Virus record (IMG/VR): IMGVR_UViG_2756170246_000002
Coordinates: 156-64,155 of that record
Length of the DNA stretch: 64,000 nt
Source of the DNA: a virus
Reading direction: 5' to 3' (one strand)
Position numbers and translations under genes: made by a program. Positions within the stretch are counted from its first letter, which is position 1. The number at the start of each line of letters is the position of its first letter. The notes under the pieces were generated by a model, which was not told the DNA's origin, searched no databases, and worked only from the letters and a program-made list of their open reading frames with translations. Of this stretch, positions 26,168 through 47,863 are shown piece after piece.

Positions 26168-26203
26168 GGTGCCAGAATGGTTACAATCTCACGCCGATGT
26201 CAA
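26168..26203 (-). promoter_or_regulatory. Putative tRNA promoter TTGACA-N18-CATTCT overlapped by operator variant (26168-26184)
   Basis: TTGACA at 26203-26198; GGTGCCAGAATGGTTAC. Confidence 0.55.
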
Positions 26204-27424
26204 GAGCGATGGCTGTGGACAATCCGAACCGAGCCAGTCGGCGTCGGGTTTGCCGAGGAGTTCGGCGGTCCACCCGCCCATCGACCGCACGAACGGCGCG
26301 AGGTCCGCCAGATGCGCCCGCCATGCCTGCCGATACCGCTCCACCTGACGCCATGGCTGGCCATTGTAGAAGTGCGGCGAGGTGTCCATCGGGACGCCGC
26401 CAAGAACAATGCGCTCATAGCCCAGTTCAAGCAGGCCCTTGACCGCAAGCAGCCCGGTCGAGCCGCCCCAATCGGGCGTGGTCTTGTCGATGCCAGGCGC
26501 TGCCTTGTGCGCCCAGACCTCGGGTTTGTTGCGCCCTGCCTTGACGCGCCGTGACACCGCGTCTCGGATGCCGATCCAGTCGATGCATGCGCCCGGATGC
26601 AGCGTGAACCAGTAGTCGAGATGCCCCTGCCATTCGATGCCGATGTTGTTGGCGGCGGCGACAGCGTTCGGCGTGAACAGTTTCAGCGCAGATGCGGCGT
26701 CGGCATGGACACAGGCCGCATCGCCCAAAACCAGGGCCGTTCTCACGGGATCAGGTCTCCAGTCGGTGAGCACGGGTGCATCCCGCTCTGGTTCGGGCCA
26801 GATGTCGCCCGCTGCTACCAGGCGCACGCGCTGCCGGCGCGCCAGATGCTGCATCACAGGCAACTCGATCGCGAAATCATGGTTGCCCGCCTTGCTCACT
26901 CCGCCCTTGTAGGCGGAGAAGCTGAAGGTGCCGGGGTTCTTGCGATAGGTCGGCGAAAAGGCCTGGTCGAGCTCCAGCGTTTTTCCCGCTGCGATATTGT
27001 CGAAGCCGACAAGGGCAATAGTCGATCCGCGCTGCGCCCGCTCGATCGCCCAGCATGTAGCGATCGTGCCGCGCGTGAACTGGAGCCGCCCCGTGGCGCC
27101 AAGCCCGCCGAGCTTTTCGCCGATCGTGTTCCAGGGCTTCTGGTCGACCAGCTCGGTTCCCTTTGGCATGTCGCAGCGGTCCGGTTGGTGCAGGATCGAT
27201 GCGACCCAGCCGCGCGCCGGCTTGCGCCGGTTGTTCTGCTGGAACGTCTTGATCATGGCCGGGTGCGCTTCGAGCAGCCCGAAATCGTACTTTTGACCGT
27301 AATCGACCGCATCCTGCCAGGCGCAGTCCCACATGCGGATGACGGTGTCGCAACCGTCGATGAACTTGCCCCAGCGCTTGCCCTCCGGCGAGCGGCCGTG
27401 GCCGATGATCGCTATCGTTGCCAT
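26189..27424 (-). CDS. Two-domain transferase: GT29 sialyltransferase-like + MAF/DUF115-like
   Basis: Sialylmotif-L-like IAIIGHG...GKFIDGCDTVIR, S-like TRGTIA...ALVGFD, VS-like HDFAIE; second domain GGSTGLLAV...YERIVLGGVPMD. Confidence 0.65.
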   Translation of the reverse strand: MATIAIIGHGRSPEGKRWGKFIDGCDTVIRMWDCAWQDAVDYGQKYDFGLLEAHPAMIKTFQQNNRRKPARGWVASILHQPDRCDMPKGTELVDQKPWNTIGEKLGGLGATGRLQFTRGTIATCWAIERAQRGSTIALVGFDNIAAGKTLELDQAFSPTYRKNPGTFSFSAYKGGVSKAGNHDFAIELPVMQHLARRQRVRLVAAGDIWPEPERDAPVLTDWRPDPVRTALVLGDAACVHADAASALKLFTPNAVAAANNIGIEWQGHLDYWFTLHPGACIDWIGIRDAVSRRVKAGRNKPEVWAHKAAPGIDKTTPDWGGSTGLLAVKGLLELGYERIVLGGVPMDTSPHFYNGQPWRQVERYRQAWRAHLADLAPFVRSMGGWTAELLGKPDADWLGSDCPQPSLLTSA

Positions 27425-28329
27425 TCGATCAGCAGCACCGGATAGAGGCCAGGCGAGCCGCGCCAGCGGTTGATGCGGCGGCGGCCGTCGAGCACGATCG
27501 TGCGGCGCTGCGGTCCGCCGCGCATCAGCGTCACCGGGCCATCCTCGAAGCGCGGCGGCAGGTCGGTCCGATAGTGATCCTCCGGCTCGGCCGTGGCATC
27601 ATGCTTCGACGCCATCCAGTCGATGACCTTCACCAGATCGGCCGCCGGCCAATATGTCGATGTAACCCGATGCGTTTCGGGCGACGGTTGGACATGTCCA
27701 AACCATTCGCAGGCAATGCGCTGCATCTCGAAATAGGGCGTGTGGCCATGATGCTGGAACTGCGCAAGCACGTCGTCCCATGTTGGGGGGCGCAGCCGGA
27801 ACATCTCCTCGACGCCGTCTTGCGTGATCTCGGTGACTCGGCGGTCTTCGATGTAGAGCCCGTCAATCGCCGTATACCAAGCCGAAAGCTGGTGTGTCTG
27901 GTTGACGCGGATCGTCTCGTGGCCGTGCCTGATCGTGGCGACGATTGTTCGGGCAACGCGCCGCAGTTCGGCGACGGCGACCTGCATCTCACTTGGCCGA
28001 AGCCAATCGAGGAGCCGTGTGCATATCGCTGTGGCGAAGTCGCTGTCATGGTAGGGCAGCGCGAAAATCGATCCCTGAAACGTGGCAAACTCGGGATAGC
28101 GCGCGCTCGCCACCGCCAACATGTCGGCCGAGACATCGACACCGGTCACAGCAAACCCGCGCTCGCGGTAGATTTCGCCATAGCGCCCGGTGCCAAGCGG
28201 CACGTCGAGCACCGGACCATCTCGAACGAAGTCGGCGACCGCCAGTTGCTCGCGCGCCCAGCGCAGGGAATGGCAGCGCTCGACGTCATACCGCTCTGCG
28301 ATGGTGCCGTGATACTTGTCGGGGTTCAA
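27412..28329 (-). CDS. Class I SAM methyltransferase fused to a ParB/Srx-like C-terminal domain
   Basis: VLDVPLGTGRY, GVDVSADML; C-terminal VLDGRRR; likely TTG start overlapping upstream TGA. Confidence 0.75.
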   Translation of the reverse strand: MNPDKYHGTIAERYDVERCHSLRWAREQLAVADFVRDGPVLDVPLGTGRYGEIYRERGFAVTGVDVSADMLAVASARYPEFATFQGSIFALPYHDSDFATAICTRLLDWLRPSEMQVAVAELRRVARTIVATIRHGHETIRVNQTHQLSAWYTAIDGLYIEDRRVTEITQDGVEEMFRLRPPTWDDVLAQFQHHGHTPYFEMQRIACEWFGHVQPSPETHRVTSTYWPAADLVKVIDWMASKHDATAEPEDHYRTDLPPRFEDGPVTLMRGGPQRRTIVLDGRRRINRWRGSPGLYPVLLIEWQR

Positions 28330-28544
28330 AGCCGGTCCATGACGTGAAGCTTCAGATGCTCGGCGATCCACAACGCAAACTCTCGCGACATGTGGGAAGA
28401 TTGAACCACAAAATCGTCATCGTCCTTGTGGAAGCCGACGATAATCACCTGATCCCACGATTCCCGACTGCTGTAGGCAAGCGCCTCTTCTGGCGTCATC
28501 TTGTTGTGTGGGCCGAGTTCAACGACCTTTTCGTTGGCGCTCAT
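28326..28544 (-). CDS. Small hypothetical protein
   Basis: 72 aa, 4-bp overlaps on both sides. Confidence 0.6.
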   Translation of the reverse strand: MSANEKVVELGPHNKMTPEEALAYSSRESWDQVIIVGFHKDDDDFVVQSSHMSREFALWIAEHLKLHVMDRL

Positions 28545-29392
28545 CGTGCTTGCCAGGCTGCCGCGTGTTCCACCCCATGCTTGCAGCCGTCGCTGTTGCA
28601 GCCGCCACAGGGCGAAAGACCCTCACGAGACCGAAGCAACTGCATGCGACGCTTGCGCATTGCCGGCGAGGTCCAGATGTCGAGCAGGTGCTCGTGAGCG
28701 GCAGAGCCGAAACGCACCACCTTATGCCAATCCTGGGGGCAGAGCAGAACGTCGCCATTCCAATCCAACATCAATTGGTATCCGGCGTACCAGCATGGCC
28801 GTGTCGCATCGATCGGCCGCTGCTCGCCGACATTGATCGTCCCGGCCCGATTGGTGAGGTGCGACAGGCCGAAATTCTCTTCCTCCGGCTGCCAGCGGTC
28901 GCGCAGGATGAACTCGCTCGAGCCAGCCTCGGCAAAGATAGCCTCGAAATGCTCGATCTGGGATGGCCCGTCATACATCGAGACGCAGATGTAATCGCAG
29001 CCGGCCGCCGTGAGGTCGCGCACCATGCTCGCGGTGAGCCGATCGCCATTCGTGGTCAACTCGACGCGGAACTCGCCGAAGGCGCGCACCAGGTCGATGA
29101 TTTTCGGATGCAGCAGCGGCTCGCCGAAGCCGCAGATATGGACCGTTCCCTCGTAGGCGAGGTCTTTCAGGTCGGCCGCGATCTTGCGCGCCAACTCCAC
29201 AGACATGTGGAGCCGCTGGTTGGGGTAAATCGCGTCATCGACGCGCGGGCAGAAGACGCAAGCCCGGTTGCAAAGTTCGGTCGGGTTGATCTCAACGAAC
29301 GAGAACAGCGGCACCTTGCCGACCATCTGGACGCGATCAACGAAGGTCGCCTTGCGCGCCAAGTTGCGGAGCGTGGCGTCGTTGGCGTTCAT
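28541..29392 (-). CDS. Radical SAM enzyme with SPASM/twitch domain
   Basis: CNRACVFC, GFGEPLLHP, LTTNG, C-terminal CWY...NGDVLLC...PCGGC. Confidence 0.92.
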   Translation of the reverse strand: MNANDATLRNLARKATFVDRVQMVGKVPLFSFVEINPTELCNRACVFCPRVDDAIYPNQRLHMSVELARKIAADLKDLAYEGTVHICGFGEPLLHPKIIDLVRAFGEFRVELTTNGDRLTASMVRDLTAAGCDYICVSMYDGPSQIEHFEAIFAEAGSSEFILRDRWQPEEENFGLSHLTNRAGTINVGEQRPIDATRPCWYAGYQLMLDWNGDVLLCPQDWHKVVRFGSAAHEHLLDIWTSPAMRKRRMQLLRSREGLSPCGGCNSDGCKHGVEHAAAWQAR

Positions 29393-29595
29393 CAGGCGGC
29401 AATGCGCTTGTGCACGTAGACCGAACGATCCGGCGTGATCCGGTAGCCATCGAACTCGACGCCTGCGCCTGGAAGGGTGCCCTTGTCGAGATAGACCCTG
29501 CTTCCGTCGCGAAAAATCACGACGCCTTCAATGCTTTCGTCCGATGACAGGACGGCGGCGATTTCCTCGGTGTCGATCTGCAGCTTTTCCATCAT
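29392..29595 (-). CDS. Small hypothetical protein
   Basis: MMEKLQID..., coupled overlaps. Confidence 0.55.
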   Translation of the reverse strand: MMEKLQIDTEEIAAVLSSDESIEGVVIFRDGSRVYLDKGTLPGAGVEFDGYRITPDRSVYVHKRIAA

Positions 29596-30233
29596 CCAAC
29601 CTTCCTGAAAATCATGAGCCCGTCGCGGTGCACCAAGCGCCCGCTGTCGTCGTAGCTGGCGTGGATGAGTTGGAGCCGATCGCTGGCGAGGAACAGTTTC
29701 AGCGCACCGGTAAAGCCGTTGGCGATCTCGGCGCCGTAGCGCTGCTCGCCGTGCAGGAAGGCCTGCGACACGACCAGCAAACCATCGGCGCGCAAGGTGC
29801 GCAGCATGTTGGCCAGCGTCACGTCGAAGCGGTGCAGCACATACCAGAGGCACTGGCCGAGCACGACGAAGTCGACCGAGACGCAACCGAAGTCGTCCGC
29901 TGTGATGTCGCCCTGCCGGAACACCGCGTCGTGCTGGAGGCTGCGCGCGGTCTTGACCGCCGCTTCGCTGATGTCGATCCCGATCATGGGGCAGATCGCG
30001 GCGCGTAGCATCGCGGTCAAGTGACCGTGGCCGCAGCCGATCTCGATGCCGGCATTGAACGGCCCGAGCCTGCCCAGCGTCTCAACGAGGCGCGTGCGGC
30101 TCACGGCGTAATAGGCCGCCATCTGGCCCTTGCGGCCGGCCTGGTCCCAAGGATCAGGGTTTTCCGAATAGACCCTCTGCCAGTCGCCGACGAGTTGGAG
30201 CTTGCCGTCGGTCTCGGCGAAGACGCCTTCCAT
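29592..30233 (-). CDS. Class I SAM methyltransferase, NodS-like
   Basis: PDPWD, IEIGCGHG, GIDISEAAV, LWYV motifs. Confidence 0.85.
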   Translation of the reverse strand: MEGVFAETDGKLQLVGDWQRVYSENPDPWDQAGRKGQMAAYYAVSRTRLVETLGRLGPFNAGIEIGCGHGHLTAMLRAAICPMIGIDISEAAVKTARSLQHDAVFRQGDITADDFGCVSVDFVVLGQCLWYVLHRFDVTLANMLRTLRADGLLVVSQAFLHGEQRYGAEIANGFTGALKLFLASDRLQLIHASYDDSGRLVHRDGLMIFRKVG

Positions 30234-30592
30234 CAGGCCGCTTCCGCCAGCCAGAAGGTCTCGATGGCATCAAGCACATCCGGCGCTGTCACGCCGTCGC
30301 GAAACACGCCGCCGATCTGGCAATATGCGCAGATGGTTCGTTCGGCATGATGCGCTCGGCCTGCCCGATATAGATGCTCGATCCACTCGAACGGCGACAT
30401 ATCTGCCTTCTCGTTGTTGCACGCGAAGCAGACGATAATCGCCAGCGTGCCGCCCTGCGAGCGAGGGAAAATATGATCCCTTGTGGTGTGGAAGATGCTG
30501 CGATTGCGCCCTAGAACCATCTTCACACCGCAGTATGGGCACGGCTTTCCAACGGCCTTTTCGCGTCGCTTGTACAGGTCGATCACGTTCAT
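30233..30592 (-). CDS. HNH endonuclease
   Basis: CPYCG...TRDHIFPRSQGG...CFACNNEK. Confidence 0.8.
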   Translation of the reverse strand: MNVIDLYKRREKAVGKPCPYCGVKMVLGRNRSIFHTTRDHIFPRSQGGTLAIIVCFACNNEKADMSPFEWIEHLYRAGRAHHAERTICAYCQIGGVFRDGVTAPDVLDAIETFWLAEAA

Positions 30593-31641
30593 ACCGACTC
30601 CACAAAGATGCTGTGGAACCGCTGCATCAGCGCCCCAGAGCCGCACGTCACAAGCAGATGCCCGTCGAGCGGCGCCGGGAAACCCGCCTTCACATGCACG
30701 CCGCGCACCTTGAGCGCCGCAGCAACCTCGCTCGCGCGCTCGCCCGGCCCGATCAGCACGTGGTTTGCGAACCAGCCCCGAACATCGAAGCCGTCGGCGC
30801 GCAGCGTCTCGCGCAGCCAATCGCGGCCGGCGCAGACCTCCGCAATGCCGGGCTCGATCCATTGCGCCCACATGTCCATCAGCACCGTGGCGGCATGCAG
30901 CGAAGGGCCTGAAATCTCGCCGGACTCCCGAATGGCATGAAGCGGCCGGATCACCGAAGGCTGCCCGATGGCATAGCCGACGCGAAGCGCAGCACCGCCG
31001 AAAGCCTTCGAAAAGGTGCGCATGATCAGCACGTTGTCGAACTCGTCGACCAGCGGCAGCGCCGTTTCGGCACCAAAGCCGTAATAGGCCTCGTCGATGG
31101 CGAACACCGCGCCGATCTCCTGGCAGCGCTGCGCGATGCGCCTCAACTCAGCGAGGCAGAAATAGGTCTCGACCGGCTGGCCCGGGTTCGGCAGGATCAG
31201 CAGCCGAACGCCGCTGTCCAGCTTGTCCACGATGTCGGCGACGCCGAGCAATCGTTTCGGGTCCGTGACGATCCGAACCGGCCTCGCGAGGAAAACCTCG
31301 GAATAGACGTCGAACATGGCGCAGGTCGGCCAGGTGAAGGCAAACCCATCCGCCGGCTCGCAGCAGAGCAGGATGAGGGTGCGGATAAAATCCTCGATAC
31401 CGGCGCCGACGACAAGCCGTTCCTCGGCCACGCCGGTGAAAGCGGAAAGCCTGCGATAGAACGCGGCATAGTCCGGATACCAGTTGTCGGGCGGGCCGGC
31501 GCGCATCGCTTCCACGACTTCGCTCGGCCATGGCTCGGGGCGTTCAAGACGGTGCAGGCGCATATCCTCGCGCGGGATCGGCGGGATGCGCTTGCGCTCG
31601 ATCGAGCCCAGATGCCGAAAACACTCACGGAACAACGTCAC
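30589..31641 (-). CDS. PLP-dependent aminotransferase class I/II (HisC/CobD-like)
   Basis: NPGQP, IDEAYYGF, RTFSKAFG.AALRVGY (PLP lysine). Confidence 0.92.
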   Translation of the reverse strand: MTLFRECFRHLGSIERKRIPPIPREDMRLHRLERPEPWPSEVVEAMRAGPPDNWYPDYAAFYRRLSAFTGVAEERLVVGAGIEDFIRTLILLCCEPADGFAFTWPTCAMFDVYSEVFLARPVRIVTDPKRLLGVADIVDKLDSGVRLLILPNPGQPVETYFCLAELRRIAQRCQEIGAVFAIDEAYYGFGAETALPLVDEFDNVLIMRTFSKAFGGAALRVGYAIGQPSVIRPLHAIRESGEISGPSLHAATVLMDMWAQWIEPGIAEVCAGRDWLRETLRADGFDVRGWFANHVLIGPGERASEVAAALKVRGVHVKAGFPAPLDGHLLVTCGSGALMQRFHSIFVESV

Positions 31642-42677: not shown

Positions 42678-42913
42678 ACATTCCGCCTTCCGAAATTGGC
42701 ATCGAACTCTTTGAGCCAGGCCGCGCCCTTTGCTGACGCCTGATACCGCCGCGCATTCTTCGGATCACGATCGAGGAAGCCATTGTCGTGAAGCTTCAGG
42801 CAGGAGCGGATCGAACACGGCCGGATGGCGAGGAACCATGTCCCGCCGATCGATGCGCGCAGGATCGCCTTTTGCGATGGGCCGGGCGCATAGACCTTGC
42901 CGACATAGGTCAT
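42674..42913 (-). CDS. Small winged-helix-like hypothetical protein
   Basis: ATGA overlaps; L...GFL...Y..S.KG pattern. Confidence 0.5.
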   Translation of the reverse strand: MTYVGKVYAPGPSQKAILRASIGGTWFLAIRPCSIRSCLKLHDNGFLDRDPKNARRYQASAKGAAWLKEFDANFGRRNV

Positions 42914-44082
42914 GGCTGATCGCCTTCGATGATCTCGCCCGTCTCAGGGTCATGCGGCGGCAGTTCCGCCTCCAAGCCCCATGCCGACCAATTTGGCCGC
43001 GCCGGACCGCGCCGGTTCAACTCGATCTTCGGCGTGTTCGGCCAAAGCTTGTCGATCCAGTCGAGGAACAGTTCCGGCTTGGCCGAGTGTTCGCCGCTCG
43101 GCGCCATGATCGCTTCGCCTTCGAACCAGGAAGGAAGTTTCGGATCGTACATATCGGGCGCGACCGGATTTCCGCGCGTGGCGACGAGCAGAATCTCATG
43201 CTTGCCGCGGTTCCAGTAGCCGGTGATGATGCGCTCTTTCAGCCAGGCGAACGAGGTGACGTAGCGGGCGTCGGTCTTGACCGGACGGAGATTACCTACC
43301 TCCGCATCACGCTCCAGCACCGCAAAGCCCCATGCGTCGAGGACGCAAATCGCCTCGATCAGCATCGGCGCCGTGGCCCACAGGAACAGTATGCAATCGT
43401 CGGCCGCGATCGACGCGACGTCGCGCGCCATGATCGCGTCGAGGCTGGATGTCGGGTAATGGTTGTCGGCGGCGCGATCCATGCCGGTTTCTCGGCTGTA
43501 TGGCTCGAAGCGCCATTCCGGGTCGGCCAGGATCAGCCCGAACTTTTGGGTCGGCAGCGCGCGCTGCGATGCGGCGAGCTCCGCCTCGCGCTGGTCGCGC
43601 GACATGCGTTTCTCGCCGGCCTTGAGCAGATTGACCGTGACGCGCTCGTTCTCGATTTCGATCCGATTGCGCCAGTCGCCGACCATGGCTTCGAACTCGC
43701 CTTCGGGAACCGCCGCCATCTTCTGGGCTCGCGCCGACATCTTGCGATCGACGCCGACGTCGGAAAGCGTGGGCTGCTCCGGAACCTGTCCCCTCGAGGC
43801 ACTTGTTTTCGGGCGGCCTCCCGGGTTGAGGCCGATCGTGGTCTTCTGCGCCACGATCAATTCGCCCAGCCGGCGCTCGGCGCGAATCCTGATCTCGGCC
43901 GCGTCGACCTCCATCTGATGATTTTTCGCTTGCCTGGCATAGGCGCGCATCGCCTCGGCCTTGTCGTGGAAGTCCTTCACCTCATCGATAGACTTTGCGC
44001 TGGCGAGCGCCATGCAGGCTGCGTCATAGCGAACGAGCGATGAAACGGGCGAGGCGTCGCCGATTGTTTGCGTGCGGATCAT
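42910..44082 (-). CDS. MT-A70-family N6-adenine methyltransferase with helical N-terminal domain
   Basis: ILADPEW, AADNHYPT, LFLWATAPM, KHEILLVATRG, HSAKPE, KIELN. Confidence 0.88.
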   Translation of the reverse strand: MIRTQTIGDASPVSSLVRYDAACMALASAKSIDEVKDFHDKAEAMRAYARQAKNHQMEVDAAEIRIRAERRLGELIVAQKTTIGLNPGGRPKTSASRGQVPEQPTLSDVGVDRKMSARAQKMAAVPEGEFEAMVGDWRNRIEIENERVTVNLLKAGEKRMSRDQREAELAASQRALPTQKFGLILADPEWRFEPYSRETGMDRAADNHYPTSSLDAIMARDVASIAADDCILFLWATAPMLIEAICVLDAWGFAVLERDAEVGNLRPVKTDARYVTSFAWLKERIITGYWNRGKHEILLVATRGNPVAPDMYDPKLPSWFEGEAIMAPSGEHSAKPELFLDWIDKLWPNTPKIELNRRGPARPNWSAWGLEAELPPHDPETGEIIEGDQP

Positions 44083-45386
44083 GCTGCCCTCCCAAAGATC
44101 ATAAGCCCGGTTGGAATATTGGTGCCTGCTTCTGCAAAGCTCCCGACCGGCAAATCCCGCCACCTGCCTTTGAGTTCGCCGTGATCGTAGTGAGCCGTCG
44201 CCGGGAGAACGGAAATAAGCTTGCCGCCAGGCTTCAGAAAATCCGTAGCGTGACGAACGTGCTTGACGTAGTGGCGCCCATAGAATGGCGGGTTCATCAC
44301 CACGAAATCGAACTCTGGCTTTGCCGGGCATTCCAGGAAGTTGGCTGTCAGGACGTTGTGACCCTTGGCCCTCGCTTCTGCGGCGCGGCCGGCGTGGACT
44401 TCGATTCCGAGCGACAGGCAACCCCGATCGCGCAGCTCATCCAATATCCGACCATCACCGCATGATGGCTCCAGAACACGATAAGGAGGAGCTTCCCGGC
44501 GCGAATATTCGGTAGGCCGATAAATGCCCACCTCGGATAGCGCTTCGTCTATTACCGCCTTCGGCGTCCAGTAGAATTGCAGGTCTTTGGAAACAGAAGT
44601 GCCGGTGCGCTTTGGCGCATTCTCTTCCTCGGCATCCGGCAAAACCTCGCCATAGAACTCTGCAAGCGCGCGGTTGATGTCTACCAGCGTGTCGGGAGGG
44701 AAAATGACATGCCCGTTGCCGTTCCTGAACTTCCGCACATGCAGGCCACGAACGGTTGCATCGCCGTCAGTCTCCCGAGTGTAGGAGTGCAGGCCGTCAA
44801 CCTCGGCGAAGTCGACATGCTCTGCCATCGGCTCGCCGCGATAGGCCGCGAGGGCGTTCACGATGTCGCGAAGCTTGTTTCTGCCATAACTGCCGTAGCC
44901 GGACACATTCGACAGGATAATCCGCTTCGGCAAACCCTTGACGCCGATCTTCACCTTGGAGTGAGACTTGTAGGCCGGGTCGAGATCGGAGAAGACTTCG
45001 GCCAGACCGCGCAAGATATGATGGCGAGGCCGCTCCAGATAATCGCCGAACGTCGCCTTGGCGTTGTCGAAGGTTAGATCCGGCGGGTTCTCAACCGTCT
45101 GGTCGAACAGCTTGCGGTCGCGGGCGCTGGCAATGCGGTCAATTTGGAGGCGATCGTAAATCGCCTTCCACCCCGATTTACAGAGGTTCCGCTTCAGGCT
45201 TTCAGCGCTGACATGCGGGCGATGCTGCGAGACAGGGCCAACGAACTTGCCCTGAATGCATGCTGCCATTTCCAGTCGCGTGTAAGCCGCCTCGAAGGCC
45301 TTCACCTCAGCCTCCATGGCGTCACGTTTCTGATCGTATTCCTCGATCAGGTCGGTGACGGTGCTTTGGCGCGCAAGCGCGTTCAT
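44079..45386 (-). CDS. DUF4942-type DNA adenine methyltransferase
   Basis: FYWTP, VLEPSCGDG, VVMNPPF; N-terminal DUF4942-like region. Confidence 0.85.
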   Translation of the reverse strand: MNALARQSTVTDLIEEYDQKRDAMEAEVKAFEAAYTRLEMAACIQGKFVGPVSQHRPHVSAESLKRNLCKSGWKAIYDRLQIDRIASARDRKLFDQTVENPPDLTFDNAKATFGDYLERPRHHILRGLAEVFSDLDPAYKSHSKVKIGVKGLPKRIILSNVSGYGSYGRNKLRDIVNALAAYRGEPMAEHVDFAEVDGLHSYTRETDGDATVRGLHVRKFRNGNGHVIFPPDTLVDINRALAEFYGEVLPDAEEENAPKRTGTSVSKDLQFYWTPKAVIDEALSEVGIYRPTEYSRREAPPYRVLEPSCGDGRILDELRDRGCLSLGIEVHAGRAAEARAKGHNVLTANFLECPAKPEFDFVVMNPPFYGRHYVKHVRHATDFLKPGGKLISVLPATAHYDHGELKGRWRDLPVGSFAEAGTNIPTGLMIFGRAA

Positions 45387-45907
45387 CACACGCCTCGCCC
45401 GGGAACGAACAAACAAATGGTCCGGCTGTCATCCAGCCCGCCAACGGGATTGGCGAATGCTCCGTGGGCAGCGCGGGCTGCTTCGGCATACGCCTTGGCG
45501 GCATCCTCTTTTTCGACATAGCGGCCGAGACTGTGCGTCTTTCCGAATACAGTGATATCAGCCTTCCATTTGCCTCTGGAGGCATCCCAAACAACGCCCT
45601 TTATGCCGCTCTTATTGCGACGACTCAGCCCTGAGTTGGCGCCGTTGAGGCTCTTGTTGGCCCTACGCAGATTTGAGCGTCGATTGTTGAGGCCATCGTT
45701 GTCCCTATGGTCGACAAGAATCCCAGGCTTAGCGACGAAGATTAGGCGATGAAGGTAGACCGACCGTCCGTTTCGGGTTGAGACCGCATACCACTTCGAT
45801 CCACATTGCGACGCTCGCCATTTGGAGCCTACGATCAGCGGAAGATCTACGGCATCAATGATGGCGAACATGCCTTTGGTGAGCGGAATTTCGAGGATAT
45901 CGTCCAT
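45386..45907 (-). CDS. HNH + AP2 homing endonuclease
   Basis: YLHRLI...VDHRDNDGLNNRRSNLR; AP2 KGVVWD..RGKWKADI...LGRY...AA.AY. Confidence 0.92.
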   Translation of the reverse strand: MDDILEIPLTKGMFAIIDAVDLPLIVGSKWRASQCGSKWYAVSTRNGRSVYLHRLIFVAKPGILVDHRDNDGLNNRRSNLRRANKSLNGANSGLSRRNKSGIKGVVWDASRGKWKADITVFGKTHSLGRYVEKEDAAKAYAEAARAAHGAFANPVGGLDDSRTICLFVPGRGV

Positions 45908-45970
45908 CGGTCAAAAGCCTCTTGAGGGAGCAAAAAGACAGATCGTCCTGCTGTCGTCCAACCCACCCAC
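45386..45970 (-). repeat. Synonymously diverged 60-nt duplication (45386-45445 and 45911-45970) flanking the HNH-AP2 gene
   Basis: VGGLDDSRTICLFVPGRGV* vs VGGLDDSRTICLFAPSRGF*. Confidence 0.9.
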
Positions 45971-46258
45971 CGTGCAAAGATGAAACCGGCCGTCAGGGCT
46001 CATCTTCACCTTGGGATCGGTCATCGGGATCAGTTCATGCGTGTTGCGGATTTCGTAGCCGCGAGCGCCTTCGATGATGTCGGCGTCGGGAACTTCGCGG
46101 CAGTCGATTCCGCTGCAGCAATTTTGTGGATAGCTCCAACCCGTCGGCGCGTCGTGGCTATGCGCCTTCCCGCCGAACAGCGTGTTGAGGAAAAGTACCG
46201 ATGCGGCTATAGCCAGCACCCACTGCAGGAAGAGGAAGCGCTTGCGCTCGGCGGTCAT
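45911..46258 (-). CDS. Exported Cys-containing hypothetical protein
   Basis: N-terminal hydrophobic helix, AHSHDAPTGWSYP..CCSGIDC, PDGRFHLC. Confidence 0.75.
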   Translation of the reverse strand: MTAERKRFLFLQWVLAIAASVLFLNTLFGGKAHSHDAPTGWSYPQNCCSGIDCREVPDADIIEGARGYEIRNTHELIPMTDPKVKMSPDGRFHLCTVGGLDDSRTICLFAPSRGF

Positions 46259-47103
46259 GGGGCACGGTCCACGATGCCGACGAACGTCATCTTGTGTTCA
46301 CGACAATAACGGCGGAACGCGGCACCGTGCAGTTCGCCGGGAAGCATGTCGATGGAGTGGCCGGTCGTGCCTCCCTTCCATGATCCCTTGCGCTCGCCGG
46401 TCTCGCCGGAAAACTGGAGGTCGAGCGAGCGGCGGATTTTCGGCTTGCGGAACAGGGAGAGCCACTTGAACCAGCCGGTTCCGAACTTCCACTCCCATTC
46501 CTCAATCATGGTGGTGACAGTCAGGCGCTCGTCGTCGAAGTCATCGAAGGCAAACGAGACCGTCGGCGTTGCCTTTTCGATGGCGCGCTCGCGCTCCCAT
46601 CGGCCGGAATCGAGCGTGTAGCTTTTTCCGGTATCGGGCATGGTCGCGACATGCTCGCCGTTGATGCCGTAGAAGCTCTTGCGGACATGCCGCCATTGCG
46701 TCCACGGGAGGAACTTCCCCCAGCGCTGTTCGGTGCTGCTGTCGTTGGTCTGGCGGCCGAGCATGACGCTCAGATGGCCTTCGGAGTAGGTGAATCCGTA
46801 TTCCCGTTCGTGCGTGTCCCAATACCAGTCGCGGCCGAGCCGTTCGATGGTTTCGGCATCCCAAAATTTGGCAGTGACCTTCCGGCGCCAGGGCTTCAGC
46901 ACTTGAGGCAGAGCCAAGATGAGCGTGTGGCCGAATCCGCTCAGGCGAAGGTCGCAGCCGGGGTATTCGTCATCACCGGAGCCGAGCACGATGGCCAACG
47001 GCCGGTAATGGCCGCGCTTTTCATGCGCGTAGGTGAACGGGCCGAAGTAGTGGTCGTGATCGCTCCAGCGGCGGTGATAGTGTCTGCTGAACATGCCCAT
47101 CAC
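46255..47103 (-). CDS. Phage hypothetical protein (Trp-rich)
   Basis: 282 aa, ATGA overlaps. Confidence 0.65.
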   Translation of the reverse strand: MMGMFSRHYHRRWSDHDHYFGPFTYAHEKRGHYRPLAIVLGSGDDEYPGCDLRLSGFGHTLILALPQVLKPWRRKVTAKFWDAETIERLGRDWYWDTHEREYGFTYSEGHLSVMLGRQTNDSSTEQRWGKFLPWTQWRHVRKSFYGINGEHVATMPDTGKSYTLDSGRWERERAIEKATPTVSFAFDDFDDERLTVTTMIEEWEWKFGTGWFKWLSLFRKPKIRRSLDLQFSGETGERKGSWKGGTTGHSIDMLPGELHGAAFRRYCREHKMTFVGIVDRAP

Positions 47104-47497: not shown

Positions 47498-47863
47498 TCA
47501 TGCTGCGACGCCCAAGCGTTTTTCCATGAGCCGGAGCCGCCGGTTGATCCTGCGGCGCGACCACGCCAGCCAGAACGCCAAGGGGCGGCCAGAGACGGGC
47601 GCTTCAAGCGCCTTGCGGAACTGCTGCTCGGGCATGTGACCCTTGAGCTTGTTGCAGGGGTCGCAGGCCGCCACGATGTTGTTGCGGTGATCGAGGCCGA
47701 ACGCGGCGCGCGGTTGGCGATGATCTGCCGTTGCGGTCCTGGCTGTCAGCGGCTCGTCGCAGTAGGCGCAAAAGCTCTTTTGCTCGCGGCGCGCGTCCTC
47801 GCGAAATGAGCGGCGGAACGCTGCGTCCAGTTTCCCTTGCTGGTAGCGGTTGAGCGGCCTCAT
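47498..47863 (-). CDS. HNH endonuclease
   Basis: CAYC...TADHRQPR...NNIVAACDPCNKLKG. Confidence 0.82.
   Translation of the reverse strand: MRPLNRYQQGKLDAAFRRSFREDARREQKSFCAYCDEPLTARTATADHRQPRAAFGLDHRNNIVAACDPCNKLKGHMPEQQFRKALEAPVSGRPLAFWLAWSRRRINRRLRLMEKRLGVAA

What the first reader, a model, noticed from the sequence alone, without database searches (positions are those of the whole stretch)
45386..46258. Free-standing HNH-AP2 endonuclease that repairs its target gene with a recoded 3' end
Seen: the upstream gene ends VGGLDDSRTICLFAPSRGF* (45970-45911) and the HNH ORF ends VGGLDDSRTICLFVPGRGV* (45445-45386). 16 of 19 residues are identical, yet 10 of those 16 codons differ synonymously. The second copy's stop overlaps the next gene's ATG. 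Established: fungal mitochondrial homing endonucleases insert near a gene's 3' end and bring a diverged replacement end. Inference: the element invaded about 20 codons before the stop, supplied a cleavage-resistant recoded end, and uses the displaced original end as its own in-frame stop and coupling signal. This also predicts the cut site.
Basis: partly seen in the sequence, partly recalled or inferred. Interest (0 to 1): 0.68.

Follow-up and report, generated by a model that had tools for sequence, protein, structure and literature searches.

The report
Homing nuclease carrying replacement gene end
A selfish DNA-cutting gene sits about 20 codons before the end of a small prophage gene and keeps that gene whole by bringing its own version of the ending, while the pushed-aside ending is read as the nuclease's own tail; this trick is proven in yeast and here recurs in seven related phage loci.

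Summary
Observation confirmed: 16/19 residues, 10 synonymous changes, TGATG overlap. The locus lies in a lambdoid prophage of a Mesorhizobium-like genome. The nuclease belongs to a seven-member HNH-AP2 clade; all seven follow a gene of one small Cys-rich family and end in frame in a copy of its last codons. None of 184 other family loci has it. The nearest nuclease-free alleles match the tail (46-51/60 nt) better than the gene's present end (38-40/60). The gene is 89% identical to one of them up to codon ~91, 63% after. Its present end matches another nuclease-bearing phage (93%). So the present end travels with the nuclease and the tail is resident-type. A conserved Trp codon at the junction is changed in 6/7 carriers (kept in 143/172 others), a candidate cut site. 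Corrections: the methyltransferase is not a fixed partner, and directed recoding is not shown. It works like yeast WHO elements and fungal mitochondrial mORFs. I found no published phage case, but this scan has noted the layout on other DNA many times. A TnsA-type nuclease in another phage shows it too. Cleavage and homing are untested.

The parts
45911..46258 (-). Target gene, 115 aa: N-terminal hydrophobic helix (signal or membrane anchor, inferred) plus a small beta domain with invariant Cys47, 48, 53, 95 and 107; widespread in Rhizobiales phages and genomes; function unknown
   Evidence: No Pfam or PHROG hit; 21 homologs; 33 of 36 genus genomes; model pLDDT 82, no PDB fold match
45911..45988 (-). 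Element-borne replacement 3' end (codons ~91-115 and stop); includes copy 1 (45970-45911)
   Evidence: Identity to nuclease-free L031 falls from 0.90 to 0.61 at codon 91 (best split, uncorrected p 8e-7); 93% to carrier L033 over codons 106-115; GC3 0.55 versus 0.75 in the rest of the gene
45971..45982 (-). His-Leu-Cys-Thr codons 93-96, where most nuclease-free alleles read His-Trp-Cys-Ser/Ala; candidate recognition or cleavage region and resistance change (inferred)
   Evidence: Trp in 143/172 nuclease-free ends versus 1/7 carriers; all tails start at or just after the Cys95 codon
45918..45923 (-). Shine-Dalgarno-like AAGAGG inside the replacement end, 10 nt before the HNH start
   Evidence: Anti-SD pairing -5.8 kcal/mol; similar sites in all 7 carriers; no promoter- or terminator-like site in 45200-46400. 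No shuffled control was run
45446..45907 (-). HNH-AP2 endonuclease core (residues 1-154)
   Evidence: Pfam HNH_3 and AP2, PHROG 99 E 1.7e-39; D66, H67 and N88 align with I-HmuI catalytic D74, H75 and N96 and are invariant in the clade; pN 0.12 versus pS 0.59 to L033; model pLDDT 90 or more for nearly all of the core
45386..45445 (-). Displaced resident-type 3' end of the target gene (copy 2), read in frame as the last 19 residues and stop of the nuclease; carries the next gene's SD-like CGAGG (45397-45393) and the TGATG overlap; proposed downstream homology arm
   Evidence: 51/60 nt to nuclease-free L032 and L044, with a 25-nt identical run to L044; pLDDT below 50, no secondary structure; in frame in 7/7 loci despite length changes
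44079..45386 (-). Downstream DUF4942 / DNA methyltransferase gene, coupled to the tail's stop; a neighbour here, not part of the element
   Evidence: Pfam DUF4942 E 1e-33 and methyltransferase domains; none of 22 homologous loci has the target gene upstream
46255..47100 (-). Upstream neighbour, Acb3-family (anti-CBASS) gene; its stop overlaps the target gene's start; context only
   Evidence: Pfam PF25187 Acb3, E 2.6e-82

Best explanation
A mobile cassette made of (i) a replacement 3' end for the target gene and (ii) an HNH-AP2 homing endonuclease gene. Shown: the layout; its recurrence in all 7 members of one nuclease clade; the chimeric nature of the gene; that the upstream copy goes with the nuclease while the downstream copy resembles nuclease-free alleles; and an intact nuclease under purifying selection. 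Inferred: during co-infection or prophage induction the enzyme nicks or cuts nuclease-free alleles near the His-Trp-Cys codons (93-96). Repair copies the cassette, with one crossover in the gene body and the other inside the ~60-nt tail, which is the only downstream homology because the next gene differs from phage to phage. The recipient gets a complete but chimeric gene that the enzyme no longer cuts, and its own last codons become the new tail. The tail stays in frame mainly because its last codons hold the stop, ribosome-binding site and start overlap of the next gene; as peptide it is probably a passive appendage. This is the WHO-element mechanism in a temperate phage.
For: 7/7 clade members have the layout; the clade holds on the core without the tail (94/97); profile search finds no eighth member; 0 of 184 other target loci carry this nuclease next to the gene. 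Chimera: 0.89 to 0.63 versus L031 and 0.83 to 0.54 for L033, against a maximum drop of 0.14 and 0.19 among nuclease-free pairs of like distance; breakpoints at codon 89-94 in 7 of 8 comparisons. Polarity. Carriers are scattered on the gene-body tree (6 changes, shuffled mean 6.9, at least 3 forced), and the window's gene body nests among nuclease-free alleles. Trp94 is lost in 6/7 carriers. Downstream genes are all different. L279 has deleted most of the tail in frame but kept the SD-like site, stop and TGATG overlap. The prophage encodes an exonuclease and a RecT-like annealing protein. Tested precedent: WHO elements (PMC7282813).
Against: No cleavage or homing data. Only 7 carriers, six on short metagenomic contigs, and they are related, so the Trp94 contrast (Fisher p 2e-4) is overstated. 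L041 keeps His-Trp-Cys. The AU test does not reject one origin for the carriers' gene bodies (p 0.17), so insertion followed by repeated loss is not excluded. For L037 and L041 the two copies are about equally close to nuclease-free ends. Free-standing phage endonucleases often cut hundreds to thousands of bases away (PMC2988022), and for T4 MobA the polymorphisms of the replacement segment alone did not block nicking (10.1101/2022.08.31.505936). A 60-nt arm is short. The target looks like an accessory gene, an unusual choice for a homing site, and carriers are rare (1 of 202 genus genomes).
Confidence: 0.76

Rival explanations
1. One old illegitimate insertion without site-specific homing at this gene. 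The nuclease sat behind one allele, was joined once to another allele's last codons, and has since moved or been lost by ordinary phage recombination. If it cuts at all, it cuts elsewhere.
For: The AU test does not reject one origin (p 0.17); carriers are rare; lambdoid early regions are mosaic anyway (40 downstream families); free-standing endonucleases can cut far from their gene.
Against: Purifying selection on the nuclease across saturated synonymous distances; strict linkage to one site in 7/7; breakpoints cluster just upstream of the junction; the tail in the window is a recent match to nuclease-free alleles (25-nt identical run) while the upstream copy is not, an asymmetry that homing predicts and neutral recombination does not.
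Confidence: 0.12
2. The nuclease is kept for the phage's benefit, for example to damage co-infecting relatives, or the 19-residue tail is a selected functional part of the protein (localisation, turnover, dimerisation), and homing is secondary.
For: The tail is in frame in 7/7 loci and stays similar to the gene end at protein level (pN 0.09-0.26) with saturated pS. Interference by a phage homing nuclease has been reported (10.1101/2023.09.30.560319, abstract only).
Against: L279 has lost most of the tail in frame; tails of L040 and L041 have decayed next to the junction; the tail is unstructured in the model, though its alignment is shallow; refreshing from recipients explains protein-level similarity without selection on the peptide.
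Confidence: 0.08
3. Reverse polarity or a plain local duplication: the upstream end is the original and the tail is a decayed copy made in this genome.
For: Within each locus the two copies share lineage-specific residues, for example the Tyr-Val-Pro-Asn ending in both copies of L037.
Against: Nearest nuclease-free alleles match the tail, not the upstream end; the upstream end breaks away from the gene body at codon ~91 and matches another carrier; synonymous sites between the copies are saturated.
Confidence: 0.03

Closest known systems
WHO elements at yeast FBA1 (Coughlan et al. 2020, PMC7282813; read)
   Same: Free-standing endonuclease between a full-length chimeric gene with a donor-derived 3' end and a displaced 3' fragment; abrupt drop in allele identity at the junction (99% to 85% there, 89% to 63% here); fragment proposed as the recombination arm.
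   Different: WHO is a LAGLIDADG intein-zinc-finger protein in a eukaryotic nucleus, targets an essential gene, has ~400-bp fragments that need no open frame, builds tandem clusters, and has proven allele-specific cleavage. Here: HNH-AP2, temperate phage, accessory gene, ~60-nt fragment fused in frame to the nuclease and carrying the next gene's translation signals, no clusters seen, no cleavage data.
Mobile endonuclease ORFs making gene hybrids in fungal mitochondria (Allomyces atp6; Glomus atp6, atp9, cox2, nad3; PMC3630166)
   Same: The endonuclease ORF brings a foreign C-terminal segment and the native end is left downstream; low DNA identity and high protein identity between the copies (63.5% nt and 91% aa for atp6; 72% nt and 84% aa here); the native copy clusters with element-free relatives.
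   Different: LAGLIDADG or GIY-YIG enzymes in organelles; fusion, where present, is to the upstream gene, not of the displaced end to the nuclease C-terminus.
Phage HNH-AP2 (IPA-HNH) homing endonuclease genes (Barth et al. 2023, PMC10448857) and I-HmuI (PDB 1U3E)
   Same: N-terminal HNH_3 plus C-terminal AP2 architecture; catalytic residues of I-HmuI present.
   Different: In the passages I read these are described as free-standing or intron-borne and often near essential genes of lytic phages; no replacement end or fused tail is mentioned.
T4 MobA / gene 39-60 element (10.1101/2022.08.31.505936)
   Same: A phage HNH element inserted inside an ORF without intron or intein, carrying a diverged homologous segment that replaces part of the target.
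   Different: MobA splits the gene into two proteins and uses a ribosome-bypass insert for immunity; the replaced segment is deleted, not kept as a tail.

Membership tests
HNH-AP2 (IPA-HNH-type) endonucleases | N-terminal HNH_3 domain followed by a C-terminal AP2 domain | tested here: met
   Pfam HNH_3 50-89 above cut-off, AP2 100-149 at 31.5 bits versus cut-off 33.3; profile hits AP2 structures and 1U3E; Foldseek top rows are AP2 domains, I-PpoI and I-HmuI, all E above 0.001
HNH-AP2 (IPA-HNH-type) endonucleases | Intact catalytic Asp-His...Asn residues | tested here: met
   D66, H67, N88 align with I-HmuI D74, H75, N96; invariant in all 7
Homing endonuclease genes | Optional presence at one fixed site among alleles | tested here: met
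   7 carriers at one site versus 184 nuclease-free loci, including the window gene's nearest relatives
Homing endonuclease genes | Cuts element-free alleles and spares the element-bearing allele | not testable with these tools
   Only indirect: Trp94 codon changed in 6/7 carriers
Homing endonuclease genes | Biased inheritance or lateral movement between alleles | tested here: inconclusive
WHO / mORF-type gene-end-replacing elements (works like) | Full-length target gene whose 3' part is discordant with its 5' part | tested here: met
WHO / mORF-type gene-end-replacing elements (works like) | Displaced resident-type 3' fragment downstream of the nuclease | tested here: met
   clear for the window, L033, L034 and L040; ambiguous for L037 and L041
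WHO elements (membership) | Intein-like LAGLIDADG plus zinc-finger protein at FBA1 | tested here: not met
   The nuclease is HNH-AP2 and the target is an unrelated phage gene: analogous, not a member
Intron- or intein-borne homing endonucleases | Nuclease inside a self-splicing element that restores the gene | tested here: not met
   The target ORF is complete and has its own stop before the nuclease; only 3 nt separate the ORFs, so there is no room for a ribozyme; no intein domain in Pfam. Rfam was not run

The most novel reading that the evidence does not exclude
Temperate phages host a general, repeatedly evolved class of intron-free homing cassettes in which the displaced ~60-80-nt gene end serves three roles at once: the nuclease's stop codon, the next gene's ribosome-binding and coupling site, and the only downstream recombination arm. 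That would let the element home into a gene whatever lies downstream, and unrelated nucleases (HNH-AP2 here, TnsA-like in L291) would have converged on it.
Probability: 0.55. Interest if true: 0.62.

Novelty: new variant of a known kind. Interest (0 to 1): 0.45.

Why it matters
It shows how a homing nuclease can invade a coding sequence in a tightly packed, translationally coupled phage operon without an intron or intein, and how it could home in mosaic regions that offer no downstream synteny. The clade supplies matched predicted-sensitive (L031, L044) and predicted-resistant alleles and a cut region narrowed to a few codons, so the first direct test of WHO-type homing in a phage is straightforward. 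It also warns that gene ends in phages can have a different history from gene bodies. The principle is already established in yeast and fungal mitochondria, the target's function is unknown, and this scan has seen the layout many times, so the value is as a clean test case, not a new concept.

Tried and rejected
Single-protein scan of viral contigs for the target found nothing; the alignment-based scan worked. The AP2-plus-tail profile search of 1.8 billion representatives was swamped by multi-AP2 proteins and gave no new tailed member. Viral and metagenome scans for the nuclease found no further carrier; three hits that seemed to cover the tail (L189, L191, L192) were double-AP2 proteins. No carrier in 201 other genus genomes. 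No target homolog in the GenBank phage collection. Fold searches of the target protein gave no match (Foldseek E 1.7 or worse, best Z 2.4) and the Atlas clusters are unnamed, so its function stays unknown. The prediction 'joined to the methyltransferase' was not seen in any nuclease-free locus. Directed recoding was tested against codon-usage nulls: significant against host usage (p 0.011), not against nuclease-like usage (p 0.08-0.09) or uniform usage (p 0.6). CasPR anti-CRISPR repressors were considered and rejected: they are CapR-AP2 proteins, whereas this protein has an intact HNH. Ten literature searches found no phage paper describing this layout; the library lacks most subscription papers, so this is not proof of absence.

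Full report
1. Observation. The two stretches are as described: 16 of 19 residues identical, 10 of those codons synonymous variants, 43/60 nt, and the second stop overlaps the methyltransferase start (TGATG). The 173-aa ORF between them has HNH_3 and AP2 domains. The window is a lambdoid prophage (repressor, exonuclease, RecT-like protein, terminase, portal, capsid) in a 7.45-Mb genome whose named relatives are Mesorhizobium. The locus lies in a tightly coupled early operon: Acb3-family gene, target gene, nuclease, two methyltransferases.

2. The target gene. It encodes 115 aa with a hydrophobic N-terminal helix and five invariant cysteines. It has no Pfam, PHROG or fold match. Homologs are common in Rhizobiales phages and genomes. 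The duplicated segment covers the last predicted beta strand and Cys107, so losing it would probably break the protein (inference).

3. The nuclease clade. Six database proteins cover the query including its tail or the tail's start, and a profile search adds no more. On the core alone the seven form one clade (94/97). All seven lie directly after a target-family gene, with start codons within 3 nt of its stop, and all end in frame in a copy of its last codons. The tails start at or just after the conserved Cys95 codon and differ in length (60-72 nt; 30 nt in L279), always by multiples of three. The core is under purifying selection (pN 0.08-0.33, pS 0.55-0.81) and keeps the I-HmuI catalytic residues. 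It folds confidently, while the tail has pLDDT below 50 (only seven rows cover it). None of 184 other target loci has this nuclease beside it.

4. Which copy belongs to the element. Over 60 nt, the nearest nuclease-free alleles L032, L044 and L031 match the tail at 51, 51 and 46 positions and the gene's present end at 40, 38 and 39; the tail shares a 25-nt identical run with L044. The window gene is 89% identical to L031 in codons 35-92 and 63% in codons 97-115; among nuclease-free pairs of that distance the largest drop is 0.14. Best breakpoints fall at codons 89-94 for the window and for L033 in seven of eight comparisons. The present end matches carrier L033 at 93% over codons 106-115, although their tails differ. 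It also holds for L033, L034 and L040 and is unresolved for L037 and L041. L032 is nuclease-free but has the carrier-type His-Leu-Cys-Thr followed by the tail-type end, as expected if the nuclease was lost by recombination between the copies (inference).

5. Recoded or foreign? Within each locus 58-69% of conserved codons differ, against about 42% between nuclease-free alleles of like protein identity, and the upstream copy has low GC3 in five of seven carriers. Summed, 48 of 73 codons differ; independent draws give 38.5 with host usage (p 0.011) and about 42 with nuclease-like usage (p 0.08-0.09). Long residence in the element, or capture of a distant allele, is enough. Selection for divergence (against self-cleavage or against deletion between the repeats) is plausible but not shown.

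6. Candidate site. Codon 94 is Trp in 143 of 172 distinct nuclease-free ends and in 1 of 7 carriers. His-Trp-Cys codons are the least degenerate stretch at the junction. This fits a recognition site there with resistance through the Trp-to-Leu or Val change, but carriers are related and L041 keeps Trp. T4 work warns that free-standing enzymes can cut far away (PMC2988022) and that replacement polymorphisms alone need not protect (10.1101/2022.08.31.505936).

7. Why keep the tail. The gene after the target is very variable: 40 families for 55 viral nuclease-free loci, and seven different genes in the seven carriers. The methyltransferase never follows a nuclease-free allele, and none of 22 methyltransferase homologs has the target upstream. 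The tail is therefore the only downstream sequence that donor and recipient share, which is the role proposed for the FBA1 fragment in WHO homing (PMC7282813). The last codons of both copies contain SD-like purine runs 1-9 nt (as scored) before the next start in all carriers, weakest for the L034 tail (no shuffle control). L279 deleted most of its tail in frame yet kept that run, the stop and the overlap. The prophage has an exonuclease and a RecT-like annealing protein, a class known from established phage genetics to recombine short, diverged homologies (own knowledge).

8. Mobility. Carriers are scattered over the gene-body tree (6 changes; shuffled mean 6.9; at least 3 forced) and the window's gene nests among nuclease-free alleles, but the AU test does not reject a single origin (p 0.17; 189 columns). 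Lateral homing is likely, not proven.

9. A second, unrelated case. While checking methyltransferase homologs I found that phage contig L291 has a 302-aa HTH plus TnsA-like endonuclease ORF (Pfam Tn7_TnsA-like_N, E 8e-17) overlapping the stop of its DUF4942 methyltransferase and ending in frame in a second copy of that gene's last 26 codons. 18 of 27 positions are identical, 13 of them synonymous variants, and 16 of 17 homologs are closer to the tail than to the gene's present end. The same layout has thus arisen with another nuclease family.

10. Comparison and novelty. It works like yeast WHO elements, where allele-specific cleavage is proven, and like fungal mitochondrial mORF gene hybrids (PMC3630166); it is a member of neither. 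The protein is an ordinary HNH-AP2 type (PMC10448857). What differs is the phage setting, the very short fragment, its in-frame fusion to the nuclease and its translational role. Ten paper searches found no phage description. This scan's earlier notes report the layout in many other phages (57 word matches; closely similar nrdB, integrase and ninB cases); those notes are unchecked, and one gave me the WHO lead.

11. Verdict. A real, well-supported gene-end-replacing nuclease cassette: layout and polarity about 0.9, homing by allele-specific cleavage about 0.75. New variant of a known kind; interest 0.45.

Noticed in passing
L291:2001-4221 (IMGVR_UViG_3300045093_000075): An HTH plus TnsA-like endonuclease (302 aa) follows a DUF4942 methyltransferase and ends in frame in a displaced copy of its last 26 codons, with its stop overlapping the next start; 16 of 17 homologs are closer to the tail. 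Same layout as the finding with an unrelated nuclease.
   Followed up: partly
window 46255-47100 (-): Strong Pfam match to the anti-CBASS protein Acb3 (E 2.6e-82), directly upstream of the target gene; it may be co-transferred with the cassette, and the operon may be an anti-defence region.
   Followed up: no
window 42910-45386 (-): Two adjacent DNA methyltransferase genes (DUF4942-type and MT-A70), translationally coupled.
   Followed up: no
window 47498-47860 (-): A second HNH gene of a different class (PHROG 2118, E 6e-20) two genes upstream of Acb3.
   Followed up: no
L032:885-1229; also L048, L063, L064, L229: Nuclease-free alleles with the carrier-type His-Leu-Cys-Thr motif (6 of 172), scattered on the tree; possible scars of nuclease loss or resistant alleles spread by co-conversion.
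   Followed up: partly
L279:709-1197: Clade member whose tail is cut to 9 codons by an in-frame deletion that keeps the SD-like run, stop and TGATG overlap.
   Followed up: yes
G000 C19:29779-30105, C1:230591-230914, C7:259718-259948; L249, L270: The target family has further copies in this genome and in 33 of 36 genus genomes sampled, with two full copies in tandem in L249 and L270; a widespread Cys-rich, probably exported protein of unknown fold.
   Followed up: partly
window 26189-31563 (-): A block of non-structural-looking genes between the portal and capsid genes, including a radical SAM protein (PHROG E 3e-8); possibly a virion or sugar modification cluster.
   Followed up: no
L082 and L309: A target-family allele truncated after about residue 78 in a nuclease-free locus, suggesting the gene is dispensable in some prophages.
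   Followed up: no
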